In this document: positions 26,401 to 62,176 of the stretch, piece by piece
Layout: each line of letters opens with the position of its first letter
How positions within the stretch are numbered: the first letter of the stretch is position 1
Origin: Blasia pusilla
Lineage: Eukaryota
Assembly (NCBI GenBank): GCA_050084515.1
Contig: CM114271.1
Coordinates: 49,538,001-49,602,000, forward strand
DNA: 64,000 bases
Reading direction: 5' to 3'
Made by a program: the position numbers and the translations under genes
The notes under the pieces: model-generated
The model's input: only the letters and a program-made list of their open reading frames with translations
Told to the model about the DNA's origin: nothing
Database searches by the model: none

Positions 26401-28635
26401 GAAATTGTAGCAAAATTGGAAAAAACTTAGCTAGCAATTGGAAACCCAATGAGGAAGTTTATGCAAACATTCAAAAGCATACACGAAGCAATTTTTTTTG
26501 CTTTATTTAACATTTATGAACAAAGGTGATTTACATTTATCATCTTGGTCTTTTCCATTCATAACTAGCAAAAATCTCCTTGCCCATGTCTATGGTTTTG
26601 GTTGCGATGGTGGAAATGAAAAAATCCTCATCCCATCGCAAACCAAAAAATTGTGTCTGCCCTCTACGTACTCCCACTTGGCATTCCCATCATTACAAGG
26701 ACCATATGATTGAATGTACCCACCTATGTTATTGCAACGTATGAAGTCATCGTCTATATATCGTCGATGGCGAGAGTTGCACATAGTAGTAGCATGTAAG
26801 AACAAGAGATACTTTGAGAATGACGAAGCTGCATGGACAAGCTCCAGTTAATCCTTCCATGTAGTATGTAAGTATATGGGACCAAAGTACGAGAATAAGA
26901 TGAGCTAGTCATCCACATCACATCCCTTGAAAAATACTATTCTATTGAGCACAAACACCCCAATACTAGTTTTAAACCTAAAGTAGATTATTTATCTATG
27001 TATCTGATACCCCATGATTCTATCGACACACCAAATGGTAGATGGGCATCCTAATGGGATCGCATTGCACTCAATGTAGTACTCTATTGAATAATCTCTA
27101 AATTGCAATTGCACGGGTTCATGTATATTAGGTACCATGCGTAAATCCTTTTGGATCTAGACCCAAGATCAAGTACCTTTGGAAAGGGATCTATAAATCA
27201 AGGGTTGATGTGAGATGCTCACTCAAACAGGGTTAATCAAACTCAATCTCAAAGGGAGGGAGGGAGTGGGACAGAGATTCGAGAACCAACTTTATAGTAT
27301 CACGCATAAGTGTACATATATCCACCCATGCATGTTGTCATGAAGGGTTGCATCGAGGGGTGTGTTAGATGATTTATTTATTTTTACATTCTTGTGTGAT
27401 TGTGCAAACATACTAGGAAGGGCACATGCACGCACCTGCATGTAGCCATATATTCAGCCTAGTGCCTAAAAATTGCAAAAAATCAAACCAAAAAAAGGAA
27501 GTCGTCTAAGCATTATTTTTTATGTTAATTTTTTCCTTTCTACTATGAACTAGAGGGGGTATTGGGGGAGATCCTTCATGGATTAGATACGAGAATCCAC
27601 CACATGTGGACAATTATACCCTTTTTTCAAGGGCCATAGCTCAAATGGGGGTTCCTTTGATCCAAAGTCAGAGGGAGGAGGTCGAAAAGACGTTCCATAT
27701 TTGTGTCAAGTGTTGTGGATCACAATCTCAAATCCACAACTATATGTATGGAGGCACATTTTCATGTGTGGCAGGAGAAGTATCACCTTCACTAATCTAT
27801 GGATGTTCCTAAAGTTGATGTTCCACCATATCGGGGGACATAGCGAGGGTGGGTTTGGAGATAGCTAATGGTGGGTTAGCTACAACCAACGAGGCAATGA
27901 CAACACCCCCAATGGAGCACAGGCATATAAGAGCTCGGACCATGAGGAGCCTCATGTTAGAAACTTCAAGATTCCCAACTACCGATAAGGCAAAGAAGTT
28001 ATCTCACCTCATCTACATGCATGTGTGTGAGTAGCATATGTTTGTTAATAATAAGTGGCTTGATACGACCCCCATGTATCAATAAACATCTAGAACTTCA
28101 TTATTGCAGAGTTCTAGAAAGGCGTAGAAATATCTATGGAGTGATCTTGAGGTACACTTCCGATCAATGTCATAGGGAGTGGGCACCAATTACAGATCCT
28201 TGTAGAGACCAGGTTGACATGCAACAATTGGCAAAGGCGCAATGTTTGCATCTAAAGGTGCAAGCGAGACACTTCTTCAACCAAGGGGGAGTAGATGTAT
28301 TTTGATATACATTGAGAGTATGTCTTACCTTATAGGAAAAATAGAATTTACAAGGTAGTTCATGTTATATACCGTTTAATTACTATGATGTGTCTTTAAG
28401 GTTTAACTAACTATGTGGGTGGATTGTGTAGTTCAAAGTATGGAGAGTATCTGACTCCCTAGATCATGTATGATGTGGCAAGTTTGGAAGATCCGAGATA
28501 ATGTCTTTGCTAACCAAGATGTTATAGCATCCATGGTTAATTACTAGCACTAGAATATTCATGTTATAGTCTGATGTTTAGGTTACTTTAAGGTTGTTGA
28601 AACTACTAATAGTTGTTGGTGCCTATTGTGCAACA

Positions 28636-28769
28636 TATCGTGCGCATACATATCGCTACACAACATACATCGCTGGTCACATCTACACCACACAACACCG
28701 ATCTTCCCCACATACGGGTCGATCCACACATGTACAAAAATCAACTCATACATATACGTGGAGATCACA
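28636..28769 (-). repeat. Terminal repeat segment B2
   Basis: Direct repeat of 29249-29382, about 4 mismatches in ~133 bp. Confidence 0.95.
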
Positions 28770-28772
28770 AAA

Positions 28773-29246
28773 AAAAATAAAGAGTAGTAAAAATGGCACA
28801 CCCGGCCTAAAACTCCACTCCTCAATCTACATCGGCATATCGAGCCTCGTCCACCTTGTGCTATCAAGGAATCCGGACGCTAGCACCCTAGTCCTATCTC
28901 ACACACATACAAGGGAGGTGCTCCAACGGCCCAACATGTTGGCTTAGGAAAGCCATCTTCCTCTCTTATGCAGGGTTGGGAAGAGCCAAAAGGCTCTTCC
29001 CCTAAAGATAGCCCTCCCCTTGGTAACATGCGCGCATAGGTTACCAGGGGCGAGAGACCTGGTCAACAAGTCACCCGGTTGTAAAAATCCTCAAAATGAA
29101 AGTTGTCAGAAATGACGTTCCTGACACAATGGACCTATCCTCAACCTCATATGACACCGTGGGACAAAGTTACACTCAACATAGTCCGCTGGCTCCTGCG
29201 CCCTATCCATGATAGATCTCGGCCTATCGGCTATTCAGATGTGACA
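28773..29246 (-). repeat. Terminal repeat segment A2
   Basis: Direct repeat of 37897-38376. Begins TGTCACA on the - strand. Confidence 0.95.
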
Positions 29247-29248
29247 GC

Positions 29249-29384
29249 TATCGTGCGCATACATATCGCTACACAACATACATCGCTAGTCACATCTACA
29301 CCACACAACACCGATCTTCCCTACATACGGGTCTATCCACACATGTACAAAAATCAACTCATACATATACATGGAGATCACACA
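29249..29384 (-). repeat. Terminal repeat segment B1
   Basis: Begins TGTGTG just after the PPT and is joined to A2 through a 2-nt GC spacer (29247-29248). Confidence 0.95.
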
Positions 29385-29385
29385 A

Positions 29386-29396
29386 CCGCCCCCCTA
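29386..29396 (-). promoter_or_regulatory. Polypurine tract (plus-strand primer site)
   Basis: TAGGGGGGCGG, 1 nt upstream of the TG that starts B1 and ~70 nt after the pol stop. Homologous ACGGGAGCA precedes B1 at ~3525. Confidence 0.7.
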
Positions 29397-29462
29397 GCTG
29401 GCAGTTGGATCCCCCCAACTCCAGATAGAAAATATCACATCTCTCTGACATGATCTACTACC

Positions 29463-30776
29463 CTAGACACATCTCTGACACATCCATCGTCCCATGGGAA
29501 CCACATCAAGAGGGGGGGTCAGACATGACATATGCCACCCTCGAGAACAACCATCACATACCAACATGGTGGCTGCACCCCTCACAAATCCGCACAACAT
29601 ACACCTCAAGCCTGCAGGTACCATTGCCAAGCTTGGATCCACCGTCCCATCTACGTTTGGAAGATGACATGACGCACAATTGCGCACATGATCCTTCCAA
29701 ACCATACCATCCCGTCCCTCCAACATGAGGACTCCGGTCGGTAATACCTCGCGCACACGTAGGATTGTGCACCCTATAGTGACATCTAGCGTCGTGGGTG
29801 CCACCTGCTGTAAATACACGTAATCTCCAGGATGAAACCTCATAATCCTTGGACGATAACCTCCTCCATGAATGGTCACGTACCTCAATGTATCTCTATG
29901 TTGGGCAATAGCTAAGTTCTCAAAGGCCATAGGCATAACTCTACGAAAAACTTATGCCCTCTAAGAACATGCTTGTACCCACACATCTGGATCATCAAGA
30001 TCTAACACCTCCGCCAAGTCATGTCGAATCGCTGCAGGTAAATCTGGCTCTCTCCCAAAGAGCAAAAAGTACGGTAAAAATGACGCCAAGGATGCATGCC
30101 GACTAAAGCAATAACCCATAGCCAACCATGGCAACTGTAGGTCCCACTCCCTCAACTGTCCCCACTGCAAGCCATACTTGCGCAATCCTCTCTTCACCGT
30201 TTGTACCACTCTCTCCGCCAACCCATCCGCCTCACGATGATCTCTGGACGTGGTGCGGTGATCTATCAATGCCTGATCACACAAGGCCTGAAACTCTCCC
30301 CTGAACTCGGTACCATGGTCAGTCAACACCTCCGCCCGTGCACCAAAGTGACTAAGCACACGATCTAGAAACGCATAAGCTTTTCTCTCGCTCGCCTTGT
30401 CTGGTATTGCCACAAACTCTATCCACTTGGAGAAATGTTCCACCATGACCAACACGTACCTATGATGACGTCCCGTCAATGGCAAAGGTCCCGCAAAGTC
30501 TAAACTCAACCGATAACCTAAACCCATAATCGGCAAAGGATGTAACTGCGGAGTGGGAGCATTGAAGGATGCTCACACTCTGTCACATACCATACATCTG
30601 GCCACAAACTCTTGTACCCCAGTATGCATGCCGCGCCACCAATACTGAACCTGGAGTAAGCTGTAAGTATGCTTTACTCCGAAATGTCCCAACTCCTCAT
30701 GGGCATGTCGCAGTACACGTGCTCGCTGGGAAGGATGAGGTACCATTCGTATCCTACCATCTCCCCATACCCGCAA
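29463..30776 (-). pseudogene. DDE integrase (HHCC, core) with C-terminal PHD finger
   Basis: HAHEELGHFG...CMVC; SLDF, LTDHG, LAER catalytic triad; terminal CMLC-x11-CDGC-x4-HMSC-x14-CQRC (C4HC3). Confidence 0.93.
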
Positions 30777-30821
30777 AATGTGAGTCCCCTCCCACCTGAA
30801 CCTAGGATCCGATCCCGCTCC

Positions 30822-32539
30822 CTAGCACTCAATGTACTCGCCAATGCGCAAGAACTCCACAACCTCCACGTCGTCATGGATATCACGACCACCTGCCGCC
30901 TCCTCACTAACCTCCGGATCTAAAGACTCATTATCCAACCCCACCACTGGAGTCATCACCTGTGGTTGACCTGCCATAGTCAACCAACAAAGATAGGCAG
31001 ATGCATGCCAACTGGGCACCATCTCCTCATCACTCTCTCCGTGCCATCGAGCTCTTGTGTCGTCTCTCTGACTCGGACATGGGTTACGACTCAACCCATC
31101 CGCATCCTGGTTCAGCCGACCTGGCCTATGAACCACCTCAAACTCATACTCTTGTAGTAATAGAGCCCACTTGGCAAGCTTTTCCGTAAGCTTTTCGGAC
31201 TCCATCAACCACCTCAATGGCTGATGATCAGTGATAAGTGTGAAAGGGTTGCCAAATAAATAGCACGTGAAATGTGCCACGGCCCACACTGCAGCCAAGC
31301 ACTCTCCCTCATAGGAGCTGTACTTTGCCTCTGCAATGTTGTTTGATCGACTCGCGTAAGCCACAACGAACTCCCTCTCCTCGTCATCCCTCTGAGTAAG
31401 CACTGCTCCTAGACCCAACATGCTCCAATCCGTATGTAACTGGAATGGGCGACCCCTAACCGGTCTCTGTAAAATGGGTGAGGACGTCAACCTGTCCTTG
31501 AGCTCATGAAATGCTCGCTCCTGATCATCTCCCCACAACCACACCTGATCAAGTCTCGTCAACAAGGTCAAAGACTTTGCGATCGCACTAAAACCCTTCA
31601 CATACCGTCGATAGAAGTTCGCCAGTCCAAGAAATGCTCGGACTCGACTCACATCCAGTAGGGCGTGGAATCGCAATAGCCTCTACCTCCAAATGCTGAA
31701 CGCCTAACCCACTCGGGTATATGGTGTGTCCCAAGTACTCAATATGCTCTTGAAAGAATGCACTTGCTGGATGTAACTTCAGTCCATGTAATCGAAATCG
31801 CTGAAACACCTCCTCCAAGTGTCGCTCATGCTCCTCAACCGTGGAATCAAGATAAGAATATCATCTATGTAACATCATTACAAAAATCCAAGCCAGCCGT
31901 AATCCTATCCATCACTCTCTGAAACTCTGCAGGTGCGTTCTTCAACCCAAATGGTAAGAACCGCCACTGATACAAGCAATCTCTCCCGAACCGATCTATC
32001 CCCCAGAATGTTGTCTTCTCCATGTCCTCCAACCTGATAGGAAGCTGATGATAGCCGGCACGGAGATCTAAAGTACTGAAGATCTTTGCATGCCCTACCG
32101 CATCAAATATCTCCTCACGAGTAGGCATGGCGTACCGATCTAACCTCGTCTGTCAGTTGATAGGACGGTAATCTCCACACATCCGCCTATCCGTCCAATT
32201 GCCATACATATCCTTCTTCGTCGGCATGACTGTGGCAGATGCATACTCCCCATGTGATAACTCCACAAGTCCTGCCTCCAACAAGTCCTGACTCCTGCTC
32301 TCAATCAAGGCTCGCTCCATATCAGAATACCTGTAGGGTCGACGAAAGATGGGCGTATCACTAGCCAACTCAATCCGTATCCTGGGACCCTTCAGCGTAC
32401 CCAAGTCTCTCATACTGAAGGCAAAACAACTGACATGCCTTCTCAGAAACCTATGAACTCGCCGTCGCTCTCCTCCTATCAACTTGAGACCTATCACAGG
32501 CTCCCAAGTCTCCATCGTGACCTTACTCGGAGAGGACAC
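30822..32539 (-). pseudogene. Reverse transcriptase and RNase H (frameshifted)
   Basis: RRPYRYS, RMCGDYRPIN, FSTLDLRAGYHQ, LPFGLKNAP, CYIDDI (shifted frame); RNase H LHTDWSMLGLGAVL, YSSYEGECLA, ITDHQPL. Confidence 0.95.
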
Positions 32540-32829
32540 AACCTCCGGCTTTGGTTGCTATGTAGCAACCCTAGCCACCTCCGCAACAACCACTCCACTT
32601 TGACCTCCTACACCATGCTCCACTTCCGAAAAATGAACATGTGCTACTCTAGCCGCCTTTGCACTCTCTGCTTGAATGACGTCCCAGGAAGTCCATGGGT
32701 GCCTATCTCTCCTCGTCTCGTCCCCAACCAATGCCTATACAGACCCTGTAGGCAATGGTCCAACTCGTGGACGTGACGGCATGGATGACACTCGCATCCG
32801 TCTTTGCTCAGCCATACCTAGGATGACTA

Positions 32830-33832
32830 TCCATGTGACAGTTGAGGTCCATTGCCTGCCCCAACACCTGTCTCCGGGATGCCTCAGTCATCCCTGGTAC
32901 CGCCGTAGTACCGGTAGTGAACCCCATGGCGCGTTCGCGCTCATCTGTTGTAGGCTCCTCCAATGCTCTGGTCACCTCATCCCAAATCATGCTTGGCCCT
33001 CCCTGACGAAAGGCATGGGATGCTGGGAAGCTGGGAAGCTCACCAACGTAGGTAAGGCTGCCCTCAACTCCCCCACCCTAATGGCCATGGCCAACGGTGG
33101 TCTATCATCCCGTGTCACCACCTAAGATTGACACCCTGAGCCCAAAATAGCATCCACTGTGAGATGTGGTGCTCTTTGGGCCCCACCGTATGCTCGACTC
33201 AGTACCTTTGATGGTATCAGGTTCGTCCACCACAGTCGTTGACGATGGGCATGTGACCCAACTCTCGCTGCATCTAACAACACATGAGGTCCCAACCAGG
33301 ACTTCACCTGATGTACACTCGTCATCACACGTGCACGAGTGTCTCCCAACAATGGCACGTTCTCCAAAATGTACGATGGAGAACATATCTGACTCTCCTG
33401 CAAGTGTCGTACTACTTGCAGCATCTCCCAAAACATCCCTGAACTCGGATCCTGCAATTCAAATACTCGTCCAACTGATGAATGACCCTGAAATGGCCAT
33501 CCAAAAATCACCAAATGAATGGTGCCAACTTTATCCAGATCCTGCGCCCCCACCAAAGAGATGTCGGCAGGTAGCGTATGCTGATATCCCCGTACTGCAG
33601 ATACCGGCAACAACTCATGATACCTCTGGACCAATCTCGCCACGTGACGTAATGATACTCGCCGTGCGGTCTCATCTCTCTCCACATAAAGATACCGATG
33701 CACCCGTATGCCCGCCTGCAATAGTGCAGCCAATCCGGTGCTAATCCCTCGGAAGAGATCTAACACCCTTACACCCTCCTCTCGGCACTGCCACACAACG
33801 GGTGTGGTATTCAATGGGGTCAACGTCTCCAC
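32830..33832 (-). pseudogene. DNMT3-like C5 cytosine DNA methyltransferase domain within pol
   Basis: Motif I RVLDLFRGISTG, II YLYVE, IV LVIFGWPFQ (PCQ with Cys to Phe), VI ILENV, VIII HAHRQRLWWTNL, IX ERERAMGF, X RRQVLGQAMD. Broken by TAG at 33122-33124 and an 8-bp duplication (GCTGGGAA x2, 33022-33037). Confidence 0.93.
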
Positions 33833-33991
33833 TCCAAGAGTCCGATTGCCACGTGACTCTCGCTGCTATGGGATAAAAACATGACTCCATGCCTGCCTCA
33901 CGAGGTCGTCGGCACTCCTCTGTAGCTCTCAAGTCGTACCCCACAATGGTGAAGAGGCCTCGCCAACATGGGAAGAGACACCCGCCATGGC

Positions 33992-34737
33992 CTATCTCTC
34001 CGTGGGACTATCCGCTACTGGGACATCCTCCGCATGTGCCTTCCCCGCCAACAACTCTCCTAGCCAGCTAACACTACATGTGAAAGCTGCCAACGTGGTC
34101 ACAGACTCGCCTCGTGATCGACCACCTTGTCCCGCAAACTGCACGGGTAATTGACTCATCCGGCCGTCACCTGACCGCCATCCTGGCTGATAAGCAACGG
34201 TCTTCTCCCAGAAGTCTAGGATGAATCCTAGGGGATATAACACTGTACTCCCCACCAACACATCGTACGACTCAACTGGTGTCGTAATCGCGCGCAGCGC
34301 ACCATAGCACTATCTATCCGTCGATGCTCTAGCCTGGACTCGACAACAATCTCTTGTCGAGTCATATATTGAGTGGGTGACACCCCCCCAATCGAGGTCT
34401 GTATCTGGAAGGGACAAGGCTCAATGTCGGCCTTCCGTAACCCCAACGCTAAACACGCCGCCTTCCCTAACATCAAGGGTTGCGCTCCCGAATCAAGTAG
34501 GACGCGCTGCGGGTGGTATACTGTCCTCATCGGACTAACCAAGAAAAATACTCCATCTCGGTTATCCAGTAACACTACTCCAGGTGTCACCACTGCTCGC
34601 TCTATGGCCGGTCGAGCTGGCATAACTACTAACTTTGCCGCCGCCTCATGCCATGATTGTGTGGGGAACGTCTCGATTACCGACTCTGAGGGTAAGTCCA
34701 CCACCTCCTCAACTACATATGAACAAGAAGCAGTCAT
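33992..34737 (-). pseudogene. Aspartic protease region
   Basis: VLLDSGAQ active-site motif; C-terminal DVLVGSTVLYPLGFILDFW after a frameshift. Confidence 0.88.
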
Positions 34738-34899
34738 CTCTCAACGCTCACACAATGTGGCGGCTAACCGGAACACCTCAGCTGGTCCAACTCCCAACGT
34801 CGCCAACTCTATGGCGGAAAATAGTGGAGTCTGACTCACTCTGGTGGCCACCTCCAACACTATGGTCGACACTGACTCCACTCGAGCCAGCATAGGAGT

Positions 34900-36626
34900 T
34901 GTCACTCCAACTCCTCGTGATGTCGACGTAGGTGCCTGAGCTGAGGCACCGCTGGTCGTCGAGGAACCATCGATGGTGTGTGTAGTGCCTCCGACAATGT
35001 GAACGACTGTGGAACCCTGGCCTGCCGCCCATCGGTCCCCTCTGGTGGGTCAATCTCAACTCCACCTCTCGATGGCTCGGTGCCTCTCGCAGCACCCCGA
35101 GTCACCATTGCAGCTGCCTCAACCTGGGCTGCACTACACATAAATCCCATACTAGCGAGATCCTCACCCTGGTCAGGGTAAGAGGTAGAAGTTGGAGTCA
35201 CACTAGCTGCTCGCAGCTCCGTGCCTTCCCTAAGCTGCATCATCGACATGGCAGCAATCCTCTGCTCCAACGGATCGATGCGTGAAAGGAGTGCTAGCTC
35301 TGGTGCTCCTGCTCCATCTCCTCTGGCTGGTGGTGGTCCTCTACCACCACGTCTAGGAAGAACTCCCCGACCTCCTCCAAGACGACCGCCCCCAGGCCCT
35401 CGGCCTACCTCTGGACGTGCCCCTCGGCGAAGGTCAAAACATCTATCCCTAGTGTGACCATATCGGTGGCAATGGTCACACTAGTGCTGTGGTGGGCCAT
35501 CCTCTTTGGTCATGAGCAATCGGAGGCGTTGGTGGTCCTCTCCCATGTTGTGGGCAGTTTCTCTGCCTATGGGCCCCTCCACACATCCAACAAGACCACA
35601 TCGGTCCCTGTTGGGCAACATATGTAGGTACGGGTCGTTGCCTCATAGGCTCACGGTACCCGCCCTGCTCTCTAGGCACACTAGCCCGCTCTTGTGGTAC
35701 TGGTGCTTGTTGTGGCACCTGTGGGGTCATCGTCGCTCGTGGACCCGTCGACTCTCGAGAAAATCCAGCGGGCACTACCTGCTCCTCACTCATGTTGAGC
35801 TCAATACGCTCAGACAACTCAAAGACCACCTTCAATGTAGGCTTCGCTGTGTGAATCAACACCGCATCTCGGACTCTCCTCCGTAGTTCTCAGTCCATAA
35901 TCTCGTACCAATACTAGATTGACTATGCCTCAGTCACTCCAAACGTAGCAATGATCAACCTCCTCATGCGTGTGAATGCCTCTCTCAGACTCTCACCCGA
36001 TTGTTGCTAAAAATCCTGTAGACTCTTCACTTTTTTGTGCACGCATGGGAGCTCTTCCCCAACCGCCGAAGAACTCCTTTGTGGGGCTGGTGGGTGGCCC
36101 TCTACCGAGAGGTCTCGCCACATCGCTTTGTCTCTCACCGCCCTCCTCTCCATCTAGTCTCCGGGCTGATGGTGTGGGTCTCTCTCCTTCCACAATCCCA
36201 TCATATGCCTCGCGACCACTAGTGGACACATACCCTGTAGCCCAATACATCCCTCCAGGCATCGATCTCTACTGAATATAGTGATCAAAACTCCATGTAG
36301 TCATCCATCGCAGGACCCTCCAAGTGCTGGAACAACCCCTTCCATGCCATGAAAGGGTTGAACCGTGTCGGGGTCTGTATCTCTTGGAAGTCGCACCATG
36401 TGTCGAACTCTTGGATAAAATCATCTAAGTCAATGGTGCCCACTGCACCCGAGAAACGACGCATGCCCCGATGGCCCATGTCGCTCATCTCCTGCCAAGT
36501 ACTACGATCTCTGTCTGCGATCTCATCACCAGACCCAGTGTCCAGTGATGACGATCCAGCCACGGATGGATGTCGAGGTAGCTCCTCACTGGTAACCCCT
36601 CGATATCTCACTCCACTCCGTGTCAC
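34900..36626 (-). pseudogene. gag with two zinc knuckles
   Basis: FSGAVGTIDLDDFIQEFDTW...HLEGPA retrotransposon gag; CWMCGGAHRQRNC and CDHCHRYGHTRDRC knuckles; RGG-rich tract. True start may lie further upstream. Confidence 0.85.
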
Positions 36627-37882
36627 ACCACTACTACTGCTCGCACTACCCCGTTCTTCCGAACCCTGGAAGAATGCAGTGATGACAAACCCTATCTCAC
36701 CCGCTCAAGCACTCAGACTCACCGCGAGTCTCCCATACTCCTCACTAGCTTACCTATGCTAACATCAATCTCGTGATGTCATACCCGGCCTCACGCACAC
36801 TCAACACTCGGGCTCACCATGAGCCTCCCAATTGACTCACCTAACCTAGCGATACTCTCTCGGGTCATACACGCGACCCCTACTCGGCAACCGCCGTATA
36901 TCCGCCAACATGCTACACATGAACATAATCTACACTCGTCATCATCACTGCACCCACCTAGCACCAGCAACTACCCGATACCCAACACTCTCAATCACAC
37001 ACGACAAGTGCCGGAAAAGGGACTCGAATGGGTAACCTGATCAGACCCTCCAACTTGCTGCACCATCAACATGCACTCCTCCACGTGATATGACAATCTC
37101 CGCAACACAACACTCTCCTTGACCAACACGTCGATCCTCCCGTCAATAGATGCGGACAACCCGTCGGCATCATGCGCACTGCCCCTCCATCGTCAACTCT
37201 CGCAACGCCCTGTCGCGCCCCAAAAACATCATGTCACGCAAACATCTCCGTCCATCCCCACACGCGGCATGTAACCTGACTCACCGTGGTCTGGCTCCAC
37301 TCCAACCACGTATACCTTGTCCAACCACGTGAACATGACCCCGACCACATCCAGATTGTCAACGATGTCTGCCCGACTGACCACGTCTGTCCATGCCCTA
37401 CCACGTTCGCCGGACCGACCTCGTCCGTCCTACCACATTGGAGGGGGGGTAATCTGGCCCGCGGCCCTATGCGGCCCCTTGGGCCCTAAATGCCGGGAGG
37501 GGGCCTCCCCAACTTTTGGGGAGGGTGCAATAAATTGGGGGGGTGCACGCCATCGCGGCCCGCTGTCCGCTCGTCCGCCCGTCCGCGCCCGCCGACCTAA
37601 ACACCCATCAGCGCCCCCAGTGGCTACAAGCCGTAACTCTCTTTTCTTCTCTCTCTAGACACCCTCACTCGCGTACACCCGACGCCCACTCCGTACTACA
37701 CTCTACCGCTGTCCCCAATCCTTGTGCACCAACAAAATCTGAGAAAAACGGATAGCGCTTCTGCCCACGGCCTTCCAAACAGAAAAATGACAAACACCCA
37801 CAACACACGCGTCTCCAAGGGCTCTCCACCAAGGCAACTGGCCTGCCTACCTGCAAACAAGGAATTCCCACCATCCCCCTGA

Positions 37883-37893
37883 CATCTTTCTCA
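37883..37893 (-). promoter_or_regulatory. Putative self-priming primer-binding site (11 nt)
   Basis: TGAGAAAGATG directly follows the ...TTTTACA end of A1 and is the exact complement of 38071-38061, which lies 31 nt downstream of TATATAA. Confidence 0.75.
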
Positions 37894-38376
37894 TGTAAAA
37901 ATAAAGAGTAGTAAAAATGGCACACCCGGCCTAAAACTCCACTCCTCAATCTACATCGGCATATCGAGCCTCGTCCACCTTGTGCTATCAAGGAATCCGG
38001 ACCCTAGCACCCTAGTCCTATCTCACACACATACAAGGGAGGTGCTCCATCAGCCCAACATGAGAAAGATGGCTTGGGAAAGCCATCTTCCTCTCTTATA
38101 TAGGGTTGGGAAGAGCCAAAAGGTTCTTCCCCTAAAAATAGCCCTCCCCTTGGTAACCTGCGCGCATAGGTTACCAGGGGCGGGTGACCTCGTCAACAAG
38201 TCACCCGGCCGTAAAAGACGTCAACATGAAAGTTGTCAAAAATGACGTTCTTGACACAATAGACCTATCCTCAACCTCATCTGACATCGTGGGACAAAGT
38301 TACACTCAAGATAGTCCGTTGGCTCCTACGCCCTATCCACGATAGATCTCGGCCTATCGGCCACTCAAATGTGACA
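37894..38376 (-). repeat. 5' terminal repeat segment A1 (TG...CA, 483 bp)
   Basis: Direct repeat of A2 with TGTCACA...TTTTACA termini. Not preceded or followed by a B copy. Confidence 0.95.
38096..38102 (-). promoter_or_regulatory. TATA box of the retrotransposon promoter
   Basis: CCCTATATAAGAG on the - strand in A1; CCCTGCATAAGAG at the same position in A2. Confidence 0.7.
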
Positions 38377-41300
38377 AACATGACATGTCTCATCCAAATG
38401 ATTGAGTGCTTGCGTCACTTGGGTTGGATCCAATTGTGGAATTGGACCATTTAGATGAGAATGACGCCTCCTACAATGAGGAGGAGGAGGAAGAAGAAAA
38501 GGAATAATATGATGCAAACGAACTCAAGAATCGCCTTGCTGAGCAAATAGTTACGCTTAGGCATAGCATAAGCTCATCCTCGAGTAATGGAGCAAGTGGG
38601 CCCATTTGTAGTAGACACCACATGGGTTTTGGTAGTATCAGTAATAGGGGTATAATTGGTGTGTAGTTACATGCTCTAGTAGTGTTCAAAGGCACTTCTT
38701 CAAGTGCTGTACCTTCTATGAGTCTAGCATAACCTTGTCCACATGGAACATTAGGTACATGGCCCCAAAGTAGATAGAATAAGAACTAGTGTAATTTTTT
38801 TTAATTTTATGTCTAGTTTGTAACTCATTTGTGAGTATCAAACATACCTCATTTGCAAGTATGCAACTACATTTTGAGTACCGTTCAAGTCATTGCAAAT
38901 GTATTGCAACTAAGTTGTGGGTAGTTGCGATTGAGTTTCGAGTGTAGTAAACTGGAAGTTTAGAGTTGTAAGGAAGTTGCAATGTGTGGTTCAAAATCTT
39001 AGCCATATGATATCTTTCGGTTGATCTATGATATCTTGCGGTTGCTTAACCACTATATTGTGACTAAATTTGAGCTTTTGGCACTTGCAAGATAGTTGTG
39101 AATGTGGTAGTGTTAGGATTAGCCAATGTCCTTAATAGAGTAGATTGGTACTAATAATGGAGGTCTTTATTTTGGAAATTGAGATTTCTAAGCAAGCTTC
39201 AATTTTCTATTCATTTAGGCATGTTGAGATTTATAAAAATCCATTATCTATAGTAAAGGGGCATAGTTGCAAAAAAAGACTTGTTTCTCAATGGAGGAGA
39301 TGAGGAAATTGGGAGAGGAAATCATCATCTCAAAGATCTCAATGGAAAATGAGACAAAATAATGCCTTTTGCAAAGACAGTCATAATGATTATGTAACTC
39401 TGTGTCACTACATTGTATCAATCTACTTTATGCCACCACATGTATCCAAATTATCTTCAATATAATATCAATAACTACCACATCAAAATCCTACATTTTA
39501 TATAATGAGAGAATTGTCCATGGATTTGTGCATCTCTCGACATGTGGGTGCTAAGTTGCTCTACCAATCAATAATGAATATAATATTATGTTCACATTGT
39601 GAGTGACTATCTTTCATCGCCTACAATAGAACGTGATAGAAGCATCTCAAGTAAATATAGAATCTAATAACTCTAACAATATATGGAACTAAATATATAG
39701 GGATAAGCCTATTCACAACTATATTGTAGTATCACAGATAAATTATATGAGAGATAATCCAAAAAAAGAGGTTTGAGTATCTATTCATGAGCATATCACC
39801 TTTCCAATGCAAGGGTGGACATGAGAAAAACTTTAAGCTAATATTTCCATTGGATATGATGCCTAACTCTAAACTCTACCACAAAATAAACTTTCCTCAA
39901 AGATGACCACCCTATTGATCTTAGAGAGCTAGAGAGAGAAAATGTTGAATAATTTCCCTACCCTTTATTATATTAGCGTCTACATGCGCTCTTAAACAAG
40001 ACTATAAGAACACCAATTTTGACAAATATGGTGAATTACAAAATTTATAGGTTTCTAACTCACTTGAAAAATAGAATTTCCTTAAAGTTGTGCTTCTAGG
40101 TAAAATTATGACTTAAGTTCATTTAATTTGAATCAAAATCTTTCCCACAACAACAAGTCCAATTCTTTATTCCACTCATTTTCATTTGCAAGTAATTGAG
40201 TCTCTTTTTTCCAAAAAGGATTAGAGTAGGAAGCTAAAATGTTCCACAATAGATTAGTTTATTTTTCAATTCTTCTCAATATCTCGTGCGTACGATGGCC
40301 CAAGATTCATTAAATGACAAAATTTGGCAAAAATGACAAATTTCCAAAGACCTTCTTTTAGTCCTTCTTATAGTCATATGTACTTGCATTAATAGAAGGA
40401 AAAATGGCTTGTGTTATGATTCGTGAGAAAAAAAGTTGTTGTTGCCAATTGGATGGTCATTCCTTGGAAAACCCTACATCATGAAGTTCTCACGAGGATG
40501 GGGGTCATCAATCAAACTTTGTGCCATTAAAATATTGATATATAATAGTTGGAGCATGAAATTAAATGACATCATCGAGACTTGCTATGCATGGTCACAT
40601 ATATGTTGGAAAAGTGAAGAACAAGATTGCCTTCACCTCAATCGTATTTGAATGTAGACTGAAGGTTATGTGTTTAGGTTCTGTGAAAATGGAACTTAAT
40701 TTATAATTCTCTCTAAGCCTTCGTCATCTAGTCGTGGTGTCAAGGCTCCAATAGGCTAACTCAAAGGGACCCAATTAGAACTTGAGGTCTTATTCGGCCT
40801 TGATCTTCCTAAGGAGGAATAATATAATATGGTTAGTTGATGTGGGTAAAGTCCTCATGGTCGTGGCAAAGCAAAGTTTGTAGGAACTAAATTATTCTAT
40901 GACTTGTATAGAATGGTAGTTGTTGAAGGTTGAATACGGTGAGATATCTCAAACACCTCCGTGGACGGATTAGAGAAAGGATACACTATGTGTAAATCCT
41001 AAAATCTTTTGGCTTGACAACAACTCATACCGTCAGAATTAGATCTTAAGAGCCAATTGAAAATCATTCGGAACTCTATTTCCAATTTTCTCTAACCCAT
41101 CGTCTCAGAAGGAGTTGTTTCACCTCTAGAGCAACTCCTATCACCATAATACAATCTTAAGAGCCAATTGAAAAACATTAAGAACTCTAGTTCCACATGA
41201 GCTTCGACCAATAACCTATCCTCAAAGTATTTGGAAGTTCCTCTTGGCGGTAGCCCTTCAATTGCCCACAGAAGGAGTTGTTCGAGCTCCATGTCACTTA

Positions 41301-52559: not shown

Positions 52560-52800
52560 AAATATAACAAGTGCACGTGGGCCATCTTGACCCCTCAATT
52601 AACCTATCCTCTCAAAAGATGCACAATGCGATGATCTTGTCATCTTTGGTACTATGGCACTTTTTGGCTCCCTCGGGAAGCCATAAACCATCATGTGCTC
52701 TAAGATGCTGTTAAGCTCAATATGCTCAAACACTTGAAACACTTGCTCTAGAGTTGGCTCCTCGATAAGGGTTATCAAAATAAAATCTACCACTTGCAAT
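52560..52800 (-). pseudogene. Gypsy gag fragment, continuation of 47657-47940
   Basis: EPTLEQVFQVFEHIELN matches KPTLKVVFELSERIELN in ORF 35476-35862. Confidence 0.7.
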
Positions 52801-55753
52801 TGAGTTGCAATGAAATGTCTAATTTCATAAGCCCAGTTCTATTGAGAAGAACTCTTTCAAGAGTTCAGGCTTCTCCCTTTTTTGGTATTATGATTGATGA
52901 GTCCACAGACATATCTGCTACTAGTCATCTAGTTGTGTTTGCCACTTTCATTGAAGAGGGACAGACAGAGTGTTGTTACTTCAATGTGAATCAAAGTCTT
53001 CTAATGTTATTACTGAAATGTTGTTGCAACTCACCAAGGATGGAGGGTTGGAATTCTCCAAAATTGTTGCCTTTGGCTCTGATGGTGCCTTGACAATGGT
53101 AGGTATCCAGAAAGGGGTTTACCTTTTGCTTCACAAATGAAACCCCCTATATTCTATCTGTTCATTGTGTTGCTCATTAGACAAATCTTGCTGCTTTGTG
53201 TGCTACAAAAGTTGCTAATTAGAAGGCAATCTCTAATGAAGTAGATTCCATTCTCAATGCTGTTGCTAGTTACTCTAGGTGGTCCTCCAAAAGGAGAACA
53301 CTTCTATCCACTTTGTAGGAAAAGTTCAATGATTCCAAACGAGTGATGAAGAGGTACCATAAAATATGCTGGTTATCTCGATGGCAAGCCGTTTCCACAT
53401 TGTGTGATTCTCTAGAATCGGTGTTGAGTTATGGTAGGGATATTTCTCCTCCGGAGGATGATGAGAATGCTGCTCATTTATTTAACAAATTAAGATCATT
53501 CCAAATGATCTATCAATTGTATTTTCTAGCTGATATCCTTTCCATGTATTGGAAAATCTTGCAAATTTGAGCAAGATTTTCCAATACAAGTTTGTGGATG
53601 TTAGCTCTATAGGGAGCATTGTTAATTCTGAGATAGCTTCCATCACTATGAATTTTGTGATGGAAACACATGACTTGAATGCATCGACCTTCTCTGAAAA
53701 CATAGGTTATCACATTTTACCTGATTTTGGGCCTCCGGGTGGCTATCTTCGCAGTTTATAGTATGAGATAAGGGGTAAAAGGTTCCATAGTATAGAGATG
53801 TCTCGAGATCGCACACGTAGGGATTTGGAAGTTGCATTATTCTTTCAAAAAAGTTTTGCTGAAAGTATATTTTCAACTTTACAAGATCGATTTTGAGATA
53901 ACCATCTTATTACGGCCTCTACAGATATGTCTCAATTTTTTTCTGGTCATTGAGACTATCCACGTGTCCTCCAACACGTGTTTAGGATAACTTGGTAATC
54001 CCACAACTGATTTTATTATCTTTCTACAAAAAAATTTGTTTTTGGTGGTAGAGTATTCCTAATCCGGGGTTATTTGCTCCGCTTTTGAAGTAAGGGACAG
54101 TGGTTAATCCCCCATCCCCCCCCATCCCCTCTCCCCATCAGTAATAGATTGGCCACTTGCCCTTACCCTTGAAGTGTGTTGTTATTCCATAATATTTTGT
54201 TTTTTTAAAACAATACCGGTAAACTAAGAGCATCTAAAGTCAAGATTGAGGTTATAGAGCCCGTGCGATAATTTATTGCTCTAGTAGATAGTGCTTTGTG
54301 AAAAATGTATGGGTTTAATTTCTTGGATCTTTGCTTGATGAGGGCCGTAACGAAAATGATCCCAGTTGTACGGTAAAAAAATATTTTTTGGTTGCCAATT
54401 ATAAGCAAAGTTTATAATGTTATGTCACCGGAATTGGGCCATTATTTTTTAGTACTGAGTATTTTCGTTACGTTAACTAACAAGCTGCGCCCTTTGGCTG
54501 TTTCACTTTAATTTTTTTTGTTTACTATGTCTTTCTTTGGTATTTTGTTTTGCTACATTTCTTCTTACTTTTCCAATTACAACGTATTTATCAACTCCTG
54601 GTAATTTAATAATATTTCCCCCCTCTCATGGCCGCACACTAGTTGGTGCAATGAAAATTCTAAACCCCTTACACATGCCTTCTAGACATGTGGGATTGAA
54701 TAGCTGGGGCTGTAAAGATTTAGATGATTTGTGTGGTTTCTTTTGAGCTCAATTACCTCTTAGAGGTAAGTTGCAACTTGCTTTGATTAACTCTCCTATT
54801 GTGAAACAAGAGTTTGAGTCTTTCAAAGTGATGGCTACCCCAGAGTGGAAGGATCGCAACTTTAGGGACCTATGGGCTATGGTAAGTTGGAGTCCCTCTT
54901 TGCAATGTAAATTTTCAAACTTGTTGATTTTAGCAATAATTGCTAGAGTCCAATGTATGAGTACTGCCATTTGCGAGAGAGCTTTCTCCATTCAGAATAT
55001 GATCAAGAGCAAATCTCGCAATGGGTTGTCTACAAAATACTTAGATGCTATTTTGAGGATTGCCTTAGAAGGACTTTCCTTTGATTACGAGGACTTTTTG
55101 GGTGAGTATGTTGTGTTATGGAAAAAATATACCCATTTTAGATATCTCTTTGCTAGTCCAAAAAAATATCTATCTTCATAGGTAGAAGTAGACAACACTG
55201 GAGTGTCTATTAATTAGGATGCTTTGATTTTGATTTGTTGGTTGTAGGGCTCTTTTAGAATACTTGGAGCTTTGGGGCTCCAAGTATTCTAGAGGGGGAG
55301 GATCCTTGGCTCCCAACTGATGGGAGGAACCAGGTTCAACTCCTGCCAATGATATCTTACTAAATGATATGTGATTTACTACCAAGTGACATGAGGTGTT
55401 TGAAGTTTAACTTTTTTAGAGTGTTGGAAGTTAGGTTGCTTAGAATGTTGGAGTGATGATAGCGAATGAATGGGAAAGAGAGGACCCTAGTTGCTGGCCG
55501 AAAATTTACCGACAAAATTTTCAACGGCCGGATTTTTTCTGGTGACTTAAAAAAAACCAGAAACTCTCCGGTGACCCGAAATTGGGACGAAATTTCGGGT
55601 CAATTTCTTTTTAATTTTCAGAATTTCACGGATTAAAATGGAAAATTATCAGAAAATTGACCTGGAAAATGAGCCGATGACGTTAAAAAAAACCGGGTAA
55701 CTGTATATTACCAGTAATCGCCTGGCATTTCAAAAAAATCTCCCCGAACCTTG
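52801..55753 (+). mobile_element. 3' half of the hAT transposon (transposase pseudogene with a ~0.7-kb unrelated insertion at ~53910-54640)
   Basis: FFGIMIDESTDIS, SDGA.TMVG, VHCVAH, WLSRW, dimerization domain STAICERAFSIQNMIKSKSRNGL. GC-rich subterminal repeats and CCGAACCTTG end. Confidence 0.85.
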
Positions 55754-61690: not shown

Positions 61691-62176
61691 TTAAGTAGAT
61701 AGTGGATCATCGATGTCAACAAGATTGATGGAGCTATCGTCTAGAGAGTTTGCCACAACTGCAGCGTCGATGGCATCCGCCACTGCCTGATTGTTTCTCC
61801 CAATGGCTTCGTCGAGTGGAGTTCGATCGTATCGATTTAGTGCAGCTGCATTGGCACCTCTGGCGATGAGCTCTTCGACTACGGGAATATGACAATTCAG
61901 AGCCGCATAGTGAAGAGGCGAATTGTCATCCAAGTTCTTCACATTCACGTTGGCTCCGTGCCCAATTAGGAACTGCACCACATTCAGATGTCCATTTGCA
62001 GCTGCCATGTGCAGAGCAGATCGACCTTGCCCATCCTGTGAATCTACCAGGACTCCTTGACCTAACAACGCCGCCACGTCCTCCAGGTCTCCATACCTTG
62101 CTGCTTCTAGAAATTCAGCCGTGAGCGGTGCAGTGGATACGGCTTCCTGAAGCCCTTCTGCCGATGGTACCGCCAT
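61691..62176 (-). CDS. Ankyrin-repeat protein (Yar1-like), 161 aa, intronless CDS
   Basis: FLEAARYGDLEDV, GRSALHMAAANGHLNVV, NSPLHYAALNCH, RTPLDEA; intact ORF. Confidence 0.9.
   Translation of the reverse strand: MAVPSAEGLQEAVSTAPLTAEFLEAARYGDLEDVAALLGQGVLVDSQDGQGRSALHMAAANGHLNVVQFLIGHGANVNVKNLDDNSPLHYAALNCHIPVVEELIARGANAAALNRYDRTPLDEAIGRNNQAVADAIDAAVVANSLDDSSINLVDIDDPLST

What the first reader, a model, noticed from the sequence alone, without database searches (positions are those of the whole stretch)
32830..33832. Ty3/Gypsy retrotransposon carrying its own DNMT3-like cytosine methyltransferase between protease and RT
Seen: C5-MTase motifs occur in order inside pol (DLFRGISTG, GWP[F]Q, ENV, HRQRLWWTNL, ERERAMGF, RRQVLGQ). 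The MTase frame continues from the protease C-terminal frame, interrupted only by TAG/TGA stops explainable as C-to-T changes. Known: the wording closely parallels the animal DNMT3 catalytic domain (VLSLFDGIATG, HRARYFWGNL, ERVFGF, RQRLLGRSW). DNMT-bearing retrotransposons have been reported from dinoflagellates and charophyte algae (de Mendoza et al. 2018, recalled), but I know of no characterised land-plant example. Inference: the MTase is made as part of the polyprotein, packaged in the particle, and could methylate new cDNA or insertions, so the element would set its own epigenetic state.
Basis: partly seen in the sequence, partly recalled or inferred. Interest (0 to 1): 0.93.

Follow-up and report, generated by a model that had tools for sequence, protein, structure and literature searches.

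The report
Dead liverwort retrotransposon carrying DNMT3-like methyltransferase
This is a broken copy of a very abundant liverwort jumping gene whose family encodes its own DNMT3-type DNA methyltransferase; such elements were described in a green alga in 2018, so this extends a known oddity to land plants rather than founding a new one.

Summary
On the minus strand, 38376-28636 is a 9.7-kb Ty3/Gypsy-type element reading gag, protease, C5-MTase, RT, RNase H, integrase, PHD finger. The MTase passes Pfam PF00145. Its family's closest solved relatives, by sequence and by fold, are only DNMT3A/B/C.

This copy is dead. The family is not dead:
- It has roughly 10^3 copy-equivalents in this genome, with the MTase region as deep as gag.
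- It gives sense-strand RNA reads.
- Intact relatives exist in Marchantia, Calypogeia, Sphagnum and metagenomes; the catalytic Cys and ENV are invariant in 29 of 29.
- dN/dS on the MTase is about 0.1.

The host is a liverwort, judged from a flanking ankyrin gene. The repeats are A-coding-B-A-B with TG..CA ends and a 4-bp target duplication, as published for KnitGypsy-Dnmt3 of Klebsormidium (de Mendoza 2018).

One detail I did not find in print: a conserved in-frame UAG-CAR-YYN stop separates Gag-PR-MTase from RT-RH-INT-PHD. The MTase would therefore be made at Gag stoichiometry.

Verdict: a new member of a known kind. The land-plant occurrence was not found in the searched literature. Self-methylation remains an inference.

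The parts
38377..38380 (-). Upstream copy of the 4-bp target-site duplication (TGTT as read on the minus strand)
   Evidence: TGTT lies directly before the 5' TGTCAC end and directly after the 3' CGATA end. Locus L020 has an analogous 4-bp duplication (CATA) at the same element ends.
37897..38376 (-). Repeat A1 (5' terminal repeat, begins TGTCAC)
   Evidence: 92.3% identical over 480 bp to A2 (28773-29246). DNA depth is about twice that of the internal region. Reads running past 38376 continue half into repeat B and half into diverse flanks (agreement 0.54).
36489..37896 (-). Leader between A1 and the gag ATG. The stretch 37192-37678 is shared by few other copies.
   Evidence: sequence; the bin 37192-37678 has about 62x depth against about 1000x elsewhere.
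34902..36488 (-). gag with two CCHC zinc knuckles, degraded by several frameshifts
   Evidence: tblastn to Marchantia P0002 residues 9-494 falls in alternating frames. ATG at 36488-36486. CWMCGGAHRQRNC and CDHCHRYGHTRDRC are seen.
34228..34740 (-). Aspartic protease region (LLDSGAQP)
   Evidence: ORF. (alignment to P0002/P0011). No Pfam hit in this copy. PF13650 is seen in the intact relative L026 and in the precomputed domains of homologs.
33866..34227 (-). PR-to-MTase linker, same frame as PR, with in-frame stops at 33992 (TAG), 33929 (TGA) and 33866 (TAG)
33122..33865 (-). MTase N-terminal three quarters. Motif I is FRGISTG (Gly to Arg), motif IV is GWPFQG (catalytic Cys to Phe), then ENV and RLWWTN. 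It ends at TAG 33122-33124.
   Evidence: PF00145, 27.1 bits.. (E 5e-94 to homologs).
33022..33037 (-). 8-bp tandem duplication (GCTGGGAA x2 on the + strand) that shifts the frame
   Evidence: sequence; 750 of 967 DNA reads of the family lack these 8 bases.
32808..33077 (-). MTase C-terminal part in a shifted frame: motif IX ERERAMGF and motif X RRQVLGQAMD. A 2-bp loss near 32836 returns it to the main frame.
   Evidence: 621 of 956 DNA reads have GA inserted behind 32836.
32561..32807 (-). Poorly conserved tail after the MTase (in-frame TAG at 32735)
   Evidence: In the L026/L037 pair the tail has the highest dN/dS of the element (0.40).
32552..32560 (-). Conserved in-frame stop with readthrough-type context: TAG CAA CCA. 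It separates Gag-PR-MTase from RT-RH-INT-PHD.
   Evidence: the same stop sits 70-77 codons before the RT motif in 18 of 29 motif matches (13 TAG, 5 TAA), and CAR follows in all 18. In the intact L026 the two ORFs are in frame and separated by this one codon. The UAG_CAR_YYA consensus is taken from PMC3542737.
31588..32557 (-). Reverse transcriptase
   Evidence: PF00078, E 4e-11..
30822..31682 (-). RNase H
   Evidence: PF17917 E 3.8e-34, PF17919 E 4.3e-32
29961..30821 (-). Integrase (zinc-binding region and rve core)
   Evidence: PF00665, E 2.5e-12..
29463..29951 (-). C-terminal extension of the integrase, ending in a PHD finger
   Evidence: PF00628, E 3.8e-10, residues 117-161. The same domain follows the integrase in L026 and in metagenomic polyproteins.
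29247..29382 (-). Repeat B1
   Evidence: 95% identical to B2. Its last 35-40 nt are conserved in the second copy in this window (92%) and in L020.
28773..29246 (-). Repeat A2
28636..28769 (-). Repeat B2. The 3' end of the element reads ...CGCACGATA (GACA in L020).
28632..28635 (-). Downstream copy of the 4-bp target-site duplication (TGTT)

Best explanation
Window 28636-38376 (minus strand) is an old, inactivated insertion of a Gypsy-DNMT3 retrotransposon in a liverwort genome.

The family's intact design has two reading frames. ORF1 is Gag (CCHC), aspartic protease and a DNMT3-type C5 cytosine methyltransferase. One conserved in-frame leaky stop (UAG-CAR-YYN) follows. ORF2 is RT, RNase H, integrase and a PHD finger. 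Split direct repeats (A-coding-B-A-B) flank the coding part, the ends are TG..CA, and there is a 4-bp target duplication.

Shown here: the architecture; DNMT3 likeness by sequence and fold; family-wide presence of the MTase; invariance of its catalytic residues; purifying selection; high copy number; and sense transcription in this species.

Inferred: most ribosomes stop at the UAG and make Gag-PR-MTase, and a minority read through to make the RT-INT-PHD fusion. The MTase would then enter particles at Gag stoichiometry and methylate the element's own new cDNA or insertion. The PHD finger would steer integration by reading histone tails. The copy in the window itself encodes nothing functional.
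For: Architecture and Pfam domains. PF00145 scores 27.1 bits in the degraded copy.

DNMT3 likeness:
- All 25 PDB sequence hits of the Marchantia homolog are DNMT3A/B/C.
- A profile of 18 family members gives DNMT3A/B/C at E 2e-16 to 8e-13, then M.HaeIII at 3e-7, tobacco DRM at 4e-7 and DRM2 at 4e-4.
- An AlphaFold model of the intact L026 domain has pLDDT 94.1. All listed Foldseek hits are DNMT3A/B/C, with target-normalised TM of 0.78-0.84 against the isolated catalytic-domain chains.

Family feature, not a private insertion:
- DNA depth over the MTase is about 1025-1100x. gag is about 1000x and the single-copy flank about 1.3x.
- Homologs with the same order occur in Marchantia, Calypogeia, Sphagnum and 80 metagenome loci.
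- One TSD flanks the whole element.

Selection:
- AGWPCQGH, ENV and EReRAMGF are invariant in 18 of 18 sequences. Cys, EN and the motif VIII/IX residues are invariant in 29 of 29.
- dN/dS of the MTase is 0.117 at dS 0.27 (L026-L040) and 0.09-0.11 for L037 pairs.
- The window against 4 loci gives 0.10-0.15, with saturated dS.

Leaky stop.

Repeats: (L020 has the same A..B-A-B).

Transcription: 3 of 3 RNA runs cover the element with a first-mate strand bias of 10:1 or more, which fits sense RNA. The MTase bins reach 3.6-10.6x.

Host: the flanking ankyrin ORF is 61-68% identical to Riccia, Marchantia and Calypogeia proteins and 52-56% to ferns and angiosperms.

Placement: the MTase tree puts the window in a 100/99 clade with Marchantia and Calypogeia.
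Against: - This copy lacks the catalytic Cys and is out of frame, so it shows nothing about activity.
- I could not see whether other copies in this same genome keep PCQ.
- Only 2 of 80 metagenome loci have an uninterrupted MTase. Close copies within one source give dN/dS of 0.40-0.79, so most genomic copies are relics.
- The only published assay of a Gypsy-Dnmt3 MTase domain (K. nitens, in yeast) detected no methylation; the authors call it inconclusive.
- Readthrough is inferred from conservation and context alone. 11 of the 18 contexts end in CCC, not the canonical YYA.
- RNA depth is not normalised, and most RNA reads are under 95% alike to this copy, so the transcripts come from other members.
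- No tree with canonical DNMT3, DRM, DNMT1 or K. nitens sequences could be built.
Confidence: 0.85

Rival explanations
1. The MTase domain is kept by the family for a job other than DNA 5mC. It might methylate the element's RNA (as DNMT2-type enzymes act on RNA). Or it might act without catalysis as a binding or adaptor module, as DNMT3L does.
For: The K. nitens Gypsy-Dnmt3 domain gave no DNA methylation in yeast. The domain sits in the Gag-PR ORF next to RNA-binding CCHC knuckles.
Against: All catalytic motifs (PCQ, ENV, RxR/WTN, motif IX) are invariant in 29 of 29 sequences, which argues against a non-catalytic role. By sequence and fold the nearest relatives are the DNA enzymes DNMT3A/B/C, with DNMT2 only at E 6e-3. 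The yeast result was inconclusive because human DNMT3B also failed there.
Confidence: 0.1
2. The MTase in this locus is a private accident: a host DNMT3 fragment or another element inserted secondarily into one Gypsy copy.
For: None found.
Against: DNA depth over the MTase equals that of gag, at about 1000 times the flank. The same PR-MTase-RT order is seen in Marchantia, Calypogeia, Sphagnum and metagenome loci. The MTase is in the same frame as PR and RT. A single TSD lies at the element's outer ends.
Confidence: 0.01
3. The in-frame stop between the MTase and RT is not read through. RT-RH-INT-PHD would be made some other way, such as from a spliced or subgenomic RNA or by reinitiation. Or the stop is simply a shared inactivating mutation.
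For: RNA depth is 3-10 times higher over RT-INT than over gag-MTase, which would fit a second, shorter RNA. 11 of 18 contexts end in CCC rather than YYA.
Against: The stop is at the same codon in clades only 31-36% identical in ORF1, and CAR follows in 18 of 18. In the intact L026 and L037 it is the only interruption, and ORF2 is in frame with no ATG requirement evident. A shared inactivating mutation cannot coexist with dN/dS of 0.06 in ORF2. The higher RNA depth over RT-INT is paralleled by higher DNA depth and probably includes reads from related MTase-less families such as the second copy in this window.
Confidence: 0.15

Closest known systems
KnitGypsy-Dnmt3 of Klebsormidium nitens (de Mendoza et al. 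2018, PMC5890265; I read the abstract and passages of sections 6, 9, 10 and 11)
   Same: A Gypsy-type domain set with an intronless, non-rearranged Dnmt3-type MTase inside the polyprotein. The repeats are arranged A-coding-B-A-B 'as in DIRS'. The MTase is under purifying selection (they report Ka/Ks < 0.2; here about 0.1). The host is a streptophyte.
   Different: The host here is a land plant (liverwort), with relatives in other liverworts and in Sphagnum. Copy number here is about 10^3, whereas the paper stresses few copies in K. nitens. I could not see their figure or supplements, so the domain order, the leaky stop and the PHD finger in K. nitens are unknown to me. No K. nitens sequence was available for a direct comparison.
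SymbioDIRS-Dnmt3 of Symbiodinium (same paper)
   Same: A Dnmt3-type MTase in a retrotransposon polyprotein, with A-coding-B-A-B repeats. Its MTase domains methylated CG de novo in yeast, the only functional precedent.
   Different: Those are DIRS elements with a tyrosine recombinase. The element here has a DDE integrase (PF00665), TG..CA ends and a 4-bp TSD.
Metagenomic and green-algal polyproteins ordered RT-RNaseH-MTase-integrase-PHD (e.g. P0195, P0218; 'pol' of Scenedesmus sp.)
   Same: The MTase is 35-42% identical to the bryophyte one and keeps all catalytic residues. The integrase is followed by a PHD finger.
   Different: The MTase sits between RNase H and integrase in one long ORF, not between PR and RT. 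It forms the other side of the MTase tree (95/82 split).
Chromoviruses (Ty3/Gypsy with a chromodomain after the integrase) and PHD-bearing algal elements such as REM1 (cited in PMC6673714 and PMC8557442; the REM1 paper itself is not held)
   Same: A chromatin-reader domain fused to the C-terminus of the integrase.
Type I leaky stop of tobamoviruses (UAG_CAR_YYA; PMC3542737, passage read) and gag-pol UAG readthrough of murine leukaemia virus (recalled)
   Same: An in-frame UAG followed by CAR-YY(A/C) between a highly expressed upstream product and the polymerase.
   Different: The recoding site here lies after PR and the MTase, not after Gag or a replicase core. Readthrough is not demonstrated.

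Membership tests
C5 cytosine DNA methyltransferase (Pfam PF00145) | Profile score above Pfam's gathering threshold | tested here: met
   27.1 bits against a cut-off of 22 for window 33865-33122; 51.1 bits for the intact L026 ORF1.
C5 cytosine DNA methyltransferase (Pfam PF00145) | Catalytic Pro-Cys (motif IV PCQ) and motif I FxGxG in this copy | tested here: not met
   The window has GWPFQG and FRGISTG. The family has PCQ and FGGISTG/FAGIGTG. Cys is invariant in 29 of 29.
C5 cytosine DNA methyltransferase (Pfam PF00145) | Motifs VI (ENV), VIII, IX and X present in the order I-IV-VI-VIII-IX-X | tested here: met
   Motifs IX and X are in a shifted frame in this copy.
DNMT3 clade | Closest to DNMT3 rather than DNMT1, DRM, DNMT2 or bacterial enzymes, by sequence and by fold | tested here: met
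   (25 of 25 PDB hits are DNMT3A/B/C). (DNMT3 at 2e-16 to 8e-13; the next best hit is 3e-7). (all listed Foldseek hits are DNMT3A/B/C).
DNMT3 clade | Placement inside DNMT3 in a tree with canonical DNMT3, DRM, DNMT1 and bacterial references | not tested
   No named reference sequences could be obtained. The tree holds element-borne domains only.
DNMT3 clade | N-terminal PWWP/ADD reader domains of canonical DNMT3 | tested here: not met
   The MTase is preceded by the protease. The only reader-type domain is a PHD finger after the integrase.
Ty3/Gypsy LTR retrotransposon | Gag with CCHC, then PR-RT-RNaseH-INT in that order, with a DDE integrase | tested here: met
Ty3/Gypsy LTR retrotransposon | Two identical LTRs | tested here: not met
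   The repeats are A1 ... B1-A2-B2. The same is seen in L020 and in the second copy in this window.
Ty3/Gypsy LTR retrotransposon | TG..CA termini and a short target-site duplication | tested here: met
   TGTCA...CGA(C/T)A with a 4-bp TSD in both the window and L020.
Ty3/Gypsy LTR retrotransposon | tRNA primer-binding site and polypurine tract | not tested
   No obvious TGG... site next to A1 was seen by eye. No tRNA set of the host was available.
Gypsy-DNMT3 (KnitGypsy-Dnmt3 type) | Dnmt3-type MTase inside the polyprotein of a Gypsy-type element, with A-coding-B-A-B repeats | tested here: met
   published description read.
Gypsy-DNMT3 (KnitGypsy-Dnmt3 type) | Sequence kinship of RT and MTase with the K. 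nitens elements | not testable with these tools
   No protein named Klebsormidium appeared. The supplements of PMC5890265 are closed.

The most novel reading that the evidence does not exclude
In bryophytes, including the model Marchantia, a large and still transcribed Gypsy family makes a DNMT3-type enzyme as the C-terminal domain of its major Gag-PR product, upstream of a conserved leaky UAG. The methyltransferase would then be a stoichiometric particle component. It would methylate the element's own cDNA before or at integration, and the integrase's PHD finger would choose the chromatin. With about 10^3 copies, such elements could also write part of the host methylome.
Probability: 0.25. 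Interest if true: 0.75.

Novelty: new member of a known kind. Interest (0 to 1): 0.48.

Why it matters
What retrotransposon-borne DNA methyltransferases do has been open since 2018. The only Gypsy-type example came from an alga that is hard to manipulate, and its enzyme gave no signal in yeast.

The same kind of element turns out to be abundant in liverworts and mosses. Copies in Marchantia polymorpha have long open Gag-PR-MTase frames and intact catalytic motifs. That puts the question into a genetically tractable land plant.

The conserved stop codon between the MTase and RT yields a concrete, testable prediction about how much enzyme is made and where it goes. The window's own copy is a relic and matters only as a pointer to the family.

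Tried and rejected
- Whole-genome search of the window's assembly: none is held.
- Earlier findings of this scan: none for this genome.
- Naming the relatives: two cluster look-ups gave almost no names apart from Scenedesmus 'pol'. No Klebsormidium protein surfaced, so the direct comparison with KnitGypsy-Dnmt3 could not be made.
- Literature on land-plant Gypsy-DNMT3: searches, and passages read, found no paper describing such elements in Marchantia or other bryophytes. The supplements of PMC5890265 and PMC12344493 are closed and may list them.
- REM1 paper: not held.
- The look-up of sequencing runs listed no RNA holder by index. The RNA evidence comes only from the laid raw reads.
- A second, 71-73% similar element at window 646-3285 was checked for an MTase. 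None is there, and RT follows directly on a B-A-B repeat block.
- Strict search for uninterrupted MTase ORFs in the 80 loci: only L026 and L040.
- PBS and PPT were not identified.
- The idea that all stops are C-to-T changes is rejected: only 1 of 6 is clear.
Full report
**What is at the coordinates.**

A stop-to-stop ORF at 33865-33122 (247 aa) reads ...VRVLDLFRGISTG...VIFGWPFQGHS...YILENVPLLGD...AHRQRLWWTNL... A second piece, in another frame (33077-32808), carries ERERAMGF and RRQVLGQAMD. Pfam PF00145 (C-5 DNA methylase) hits the 247-aa piece at E 3.6e-6, 27.1 bits, against a curated cut-off of 22.

Around it, on the same strand, the order is:
- gag with two CCHC knuckles (36488-34902);
- an aspartic-protease region with LLDSGAQP (34740-34228);
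- the MTase;
- RT (PF00078), RNase H (PF17917/PF17919) and the integrase core (PF00665);
- a PHD finger (PF00628) at the very end (29951-29463).

tblastn with a Marchantia homolog runs as one segment in a single frame from the protease through the MTase to 32669. The RT ORF is in that same frame.

**State of this copy.**

It is dead.
- Motif IV is PFQ instead of PCQ (codon TTT), and the first glycine of motif I is Arg (CGA). Both are transversions relative to the family's Cys and Gly.
- In-frame stops lie at 34310, 33992, 33929, 33866, 33122 and 32735, all TAG or TGA.
- Only the stop at 33122 aligns to a glutamine in the Marchantia protein, so it alone is plainly a C-to-T change.
One is an 8-bp tandem duplication (GCTGGGAA twice, 33022-33037). 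The other is a 2-bp loss near 32836. Together they throw motifs IX and X out of frame and back again.
- Reads of the same species show that both are private to this copy or a minority: 750 of 967 DNA reads lack the 8 bases, and 621 of 956 carry the 2 extra bases.
- gag is broken by further frameshifts.
- The two A repeats are 92.3% identical and the two B repeats 95%, so the insertion is old.

**Element borders and repeats.**

Read on the minus strand, the element is A1 (38376-37897), the coding part, B1 (29382-29247), A2 (29246-28773) and B2 (28769-28636). This is not a pair of identical LTRs.
- It is the A-coding-B-A-B arrangement that de Mendoza et al. describe for DIRS elements and, explicitly, for KnitGypsy-Dnmt3 (PMC5890265, legends of Figs 1e and 4c).
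- It is a family trait. A metagenome locus (L020) has the same layout.
- The diverged second copy in this window has it too.
- In the genomic reads, those running past the outer edge of A continue with a consensus that matches the start of B at agreement 0.54. That is expected if half come from B1|A2 junctions and half from flank|A1 junctions.
- The ends read 5'-TGTCA...CGA(C/T)A-3'. They are flanked by a 4-bp duplication in both the window (TGTT) and L020 (CATA), which fits insertion by a DDE integrase.
- One duplication surrounds the whole element, so the MTase has no target duplication of its own.

**Is the MTase a family feature?**

Yes.
- With about 1 in 100 of a whole-genome run laid at 85% likeness or more, depth is about 1000-1600x across the element. 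It is 1025x and 1102x in the two MTase bins and about 1000x in gag. The mean over the 5.3 kb of right flank is about 1.3x. That amounts to several hundred to a thousand copy-equivalents, with the MTase in essentially all of them.
- Protein searches find the same gag-PR-MTase(-RT) proteins in Marchantia polymorpha (many gene models, 60-67% identical to the window's ORF, with GWPCQG intact), Calypogeia fissa and Sphagnum.
- A scan of metagenome contigs returned 312 confirmed relatives, of which 80 were kept.
- The exhaustive representative search gave 1364 proteins at E <= 1e-3, many of them 1000-3400-residue polyproteins.

**Host.**

A complete ankyrin-repeat ORF in the flank (61691-62185, minus strand) is 68% and 65% identical to Riccia proteins and 61% to Marchantia and Calypogeia. 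It is 56% identical to a fern protein and 52-54% to three angiosperm proteins. The window therefore comes from a liverwort other than those. In a tree of the MTase domains the window falls in a 100/99-supported group of seven with Marchantia, Calypogeia and two metagenome sequences.

**DNMT3 or not.**

- All 25 solved-structure sequences hit by the Marchantia protein are DNMT3A, 3B or 3C.
- A profile of 18 family members scores DNMT3A/B/C at E 1.8e-16 to 8e-13. The next hits are M.HaeIII (2.9e-7), tobacco DRM (3.8e-7), M.HhaI (1.3e-5), DRM2 (4e-4) and DNMT2 (6e-3). DNMT1 is not among the 60 shown.
- The motif order is not rearranged, unlike in DRM.
- An AlphaFold model of the intact domain of locus L026 has mean pLDDT 94.1. 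All Foldseek matches listed are DNMT3A/B/C catalytic domains, with target-normalised TM of 0.78-0.84 against the isolated catalytic-domain chains.
- I could not build the tree with canonical DNMT3, DRM and K. nitens sequences, because no named references could be brought in.

**Selection.**

- In 18 gag-PR-MTase proteins, only 31-36% identical overall between clades, the invariant columns include A-G-W-P-C-Q-G-H, E-N-V, R..W-T-N and E-R-E-R-A-M-G-F.
- With nine further polyproteins added, mostly of the other domain order, the catalytic Cys, E-N and key residues of motifs VIII and IX stay invariant in 29 of 29.
- Nei-Gojobori dN/dS of the MTase domain is 0.117 between the intact loci L026 and L040 (dS 0.27). 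It is 0.09-0.11 against L037 (dS about 1.5). For comparison, RT gives 0.06, integrase 0.03, gag 0.10 and the tail after the MTase 0.40.
- The window's ORF against four bryophyte-type loci gives 0.10-0.15, with saturated dS.
- Against this, close copies from one source give 0.40-0.79, and only 2 of 80 loci have an uninterrupted MTase. Most genomic copies are relics, like this one.

**A conserved stop codon after the MTase.**

In the intact locus L026, ORF1 (1369 aa) holds CCHC, Asp-protease and DNA_methylase. ORF2 (1047 aa) holds RVT_1, RNase H, Integrase_H2C2, rve and PHD. They are in the same frame and separated by exactly one codon, TAG. L037 and L001 show the same pattern. The stop in L061 does not sit at the homologous position.

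I searched all loci plus the window for the RT motif FxRPYR and looked upstream.
- In 18 of 29 matches an in-frame stop sits 70-77 codons before the motif: 13 TAG and 5 TAA.
- It is always followed by CAA or CAG, and then by CCC (14), CCA (1), TTA (2) or TCA (1).
- The window has TAG CAA CCA at 32560-32552.
- Of the other 11 matches, one has the motif displaced by an indel. Six belong to a distinct clade in which my pattern hit elsewhere. Four are degraded or lie at a contig edge.

UAG_CAR_YYA is the consensus of the type I leaky stop of tobamoviruses and other plant viruses (PMC3542737, passage read). About fifteen independent gene calls also end after the MTase, at 1228-1451 residues, with no RT.

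I infer programmed readthrough. Gag-PR-MTase would be the main product, and the RT-RH-INT-PHD fusion a minor one. Nothing here demonstrates readthrough, and CCC is not the canonical third codon.

**Expression.**

Three RNA-seq runs of the same species label cover the element.
- Depth is 18-56x over RT-INT, 3.6-10.6x over the MTase and 1-12x over gag.
- First mates lie on the + strand at least 10 times more often than on the - strand. In the usual stranded libraries that means RNA of the minus, sense strand.
- Most RNA reads are under 95% alike to this copy. Where informative, they mostly lack its two frameshifts: for the 8-bp duplication, 5 of 5, 0 of 9 and 1 of 3 reads lack it in the three runs. 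For the GA, 4 of 7, 6 of 6 and 2 of 2 reads carry it.
- The transcripts therefore come from other members. Depth is not normalised, so this shows presence of sense RNA, not its level.

**How it probably works.**

Shown: the architecture, DNMT3 kinship, selection, abundance and transcription.

Inferred: the MTase is translated with Gag and PR and enters the particle as part of the Gag-PR-MTase precursor. It then methylates the new cDNA or the fresh insertion, which is the self-methylation idea of de Mendoza et al. The PHD finger on the integrase reads histone tails to pick insertion sites, by analogy with the chromodomain of chromoviruses.

Why self-methylation would pay is open. The one published test of a Gypsy-Dnmt3 domain (K. 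nitens, in yeast) found no methylation, and the authors call it inconclusive because human DNMT3B also failed there. A role on RNA or a non-catalytic role is not excluded, but it fits poorly with the invariant catalytic residues.

**Comparison with what is known, and novelty.**

The kind is published. KnitGypsy-Dnmt3 has a Gypsy domain set, a Dnmt3-type MTase in the polyprotein, A-coding-B-A-B repeats and Ka/Ks < 0.2 (PMC5890265). A 2026 preprint already speaks of 'streptophytes (Gypsy-DNMT3)' (10.64898/2026.05.21.726589, passage read). PHD fingers are a known accessory domain of green-algal elements (PMC8557442, PMC6673714, passages read).

Points I did not find in the searched literature (passages):
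- the occurrence in land plants;
- the high copy number;
- the conserved stop that places the MTase in the Gag-PR frame.

The figure and supplements of the 2018 paper, which I could not see, may already show the domain order and the stop. I therefore file this as a new member of a known kind. It is of moderate interest, mainly because Marchantia makes the open functional question testable.

Noticed in passing
window 1-4305, + strand: A second, related element, 71-73% identical in nucleotides over RT-INT. RT, RNase H, integrase and PHD (646-3285) are preceded directly by a B-A-B repeat block (1-658) and followed by another (3534-4305; the two blocks are 79% alike). No gag, protease or MTase lies between. 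It is either a 5'-truncated copy abutting the 3' end of another copy, or a deletion derivative.
   Followed up: partly
window 28636-28675 and 29247-29287; window 623-660, 3626-3668, 4259-4304; L020 17226-17261 and 17680-17715: The last 35-40 nt of repeat B (...ATGTATGTTGTGTAGCGATATGTATGCGCACGA..) stay 84-92% identical between elements that are otherwise about 72% alike. They are also recognisable in a metagenome locus from another organism. This suggests a cis-acting end sequence, such as an integrase site or a priming site.
   Followed up: partly
window 37192-37678: A GC-rich stretch of the leader has about 62x depth in genomic reads where the rest of the element has about 1000x. It is either a copy-specific insertion or a fast-evolving segment.
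   Followed up: no
proteins P0195, P0218, P0204 and others: A sister group of polyproteins (metagenomes; also 'pol' of Scenedesmus sp.) carries the same MTase type between RNase H and integrase, in one ORF of about 2000 aa, again with a PHD finger after the integrase. The MTase has therefore moved within the polyprotein or was captured twice.
   Followed up: partly
loci L045-L077 (for example L048 near 3509, L061 near 14194): A third clade, 29-34% identical over PR-MTase only. It shares the string AGGTAGGTGTAAGAC just before an FxRPYR-like motif. Its structure was not resolved.
   Followed up: no
window 4883-5230 (+), 52752-55181 (+): Other transposon remnants: a Transposase_21 (tnp2/CACTA-type) fragment (PF02992, E 1e-14) and a hAT dimerisation domain (PF05699, E 3e-5).
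   Followed up: partly
window 61691-62185 (-), 59350-59853 (+): Host genes. One is a complete single-exon ankyrin-repeat protein, most like liverwort proteins. The other is an exon-like ORF with a weak match to the phosphorylase superfamily (PF01048, 22 bits, below the cut-off).
   Followed up: partly
protein P0232: A fragment of this eukaryotic element family is deposited as a protein of a 'Spirochaetia bacterium' MAG. This is probably contamination of that bin.
   Followed up: no
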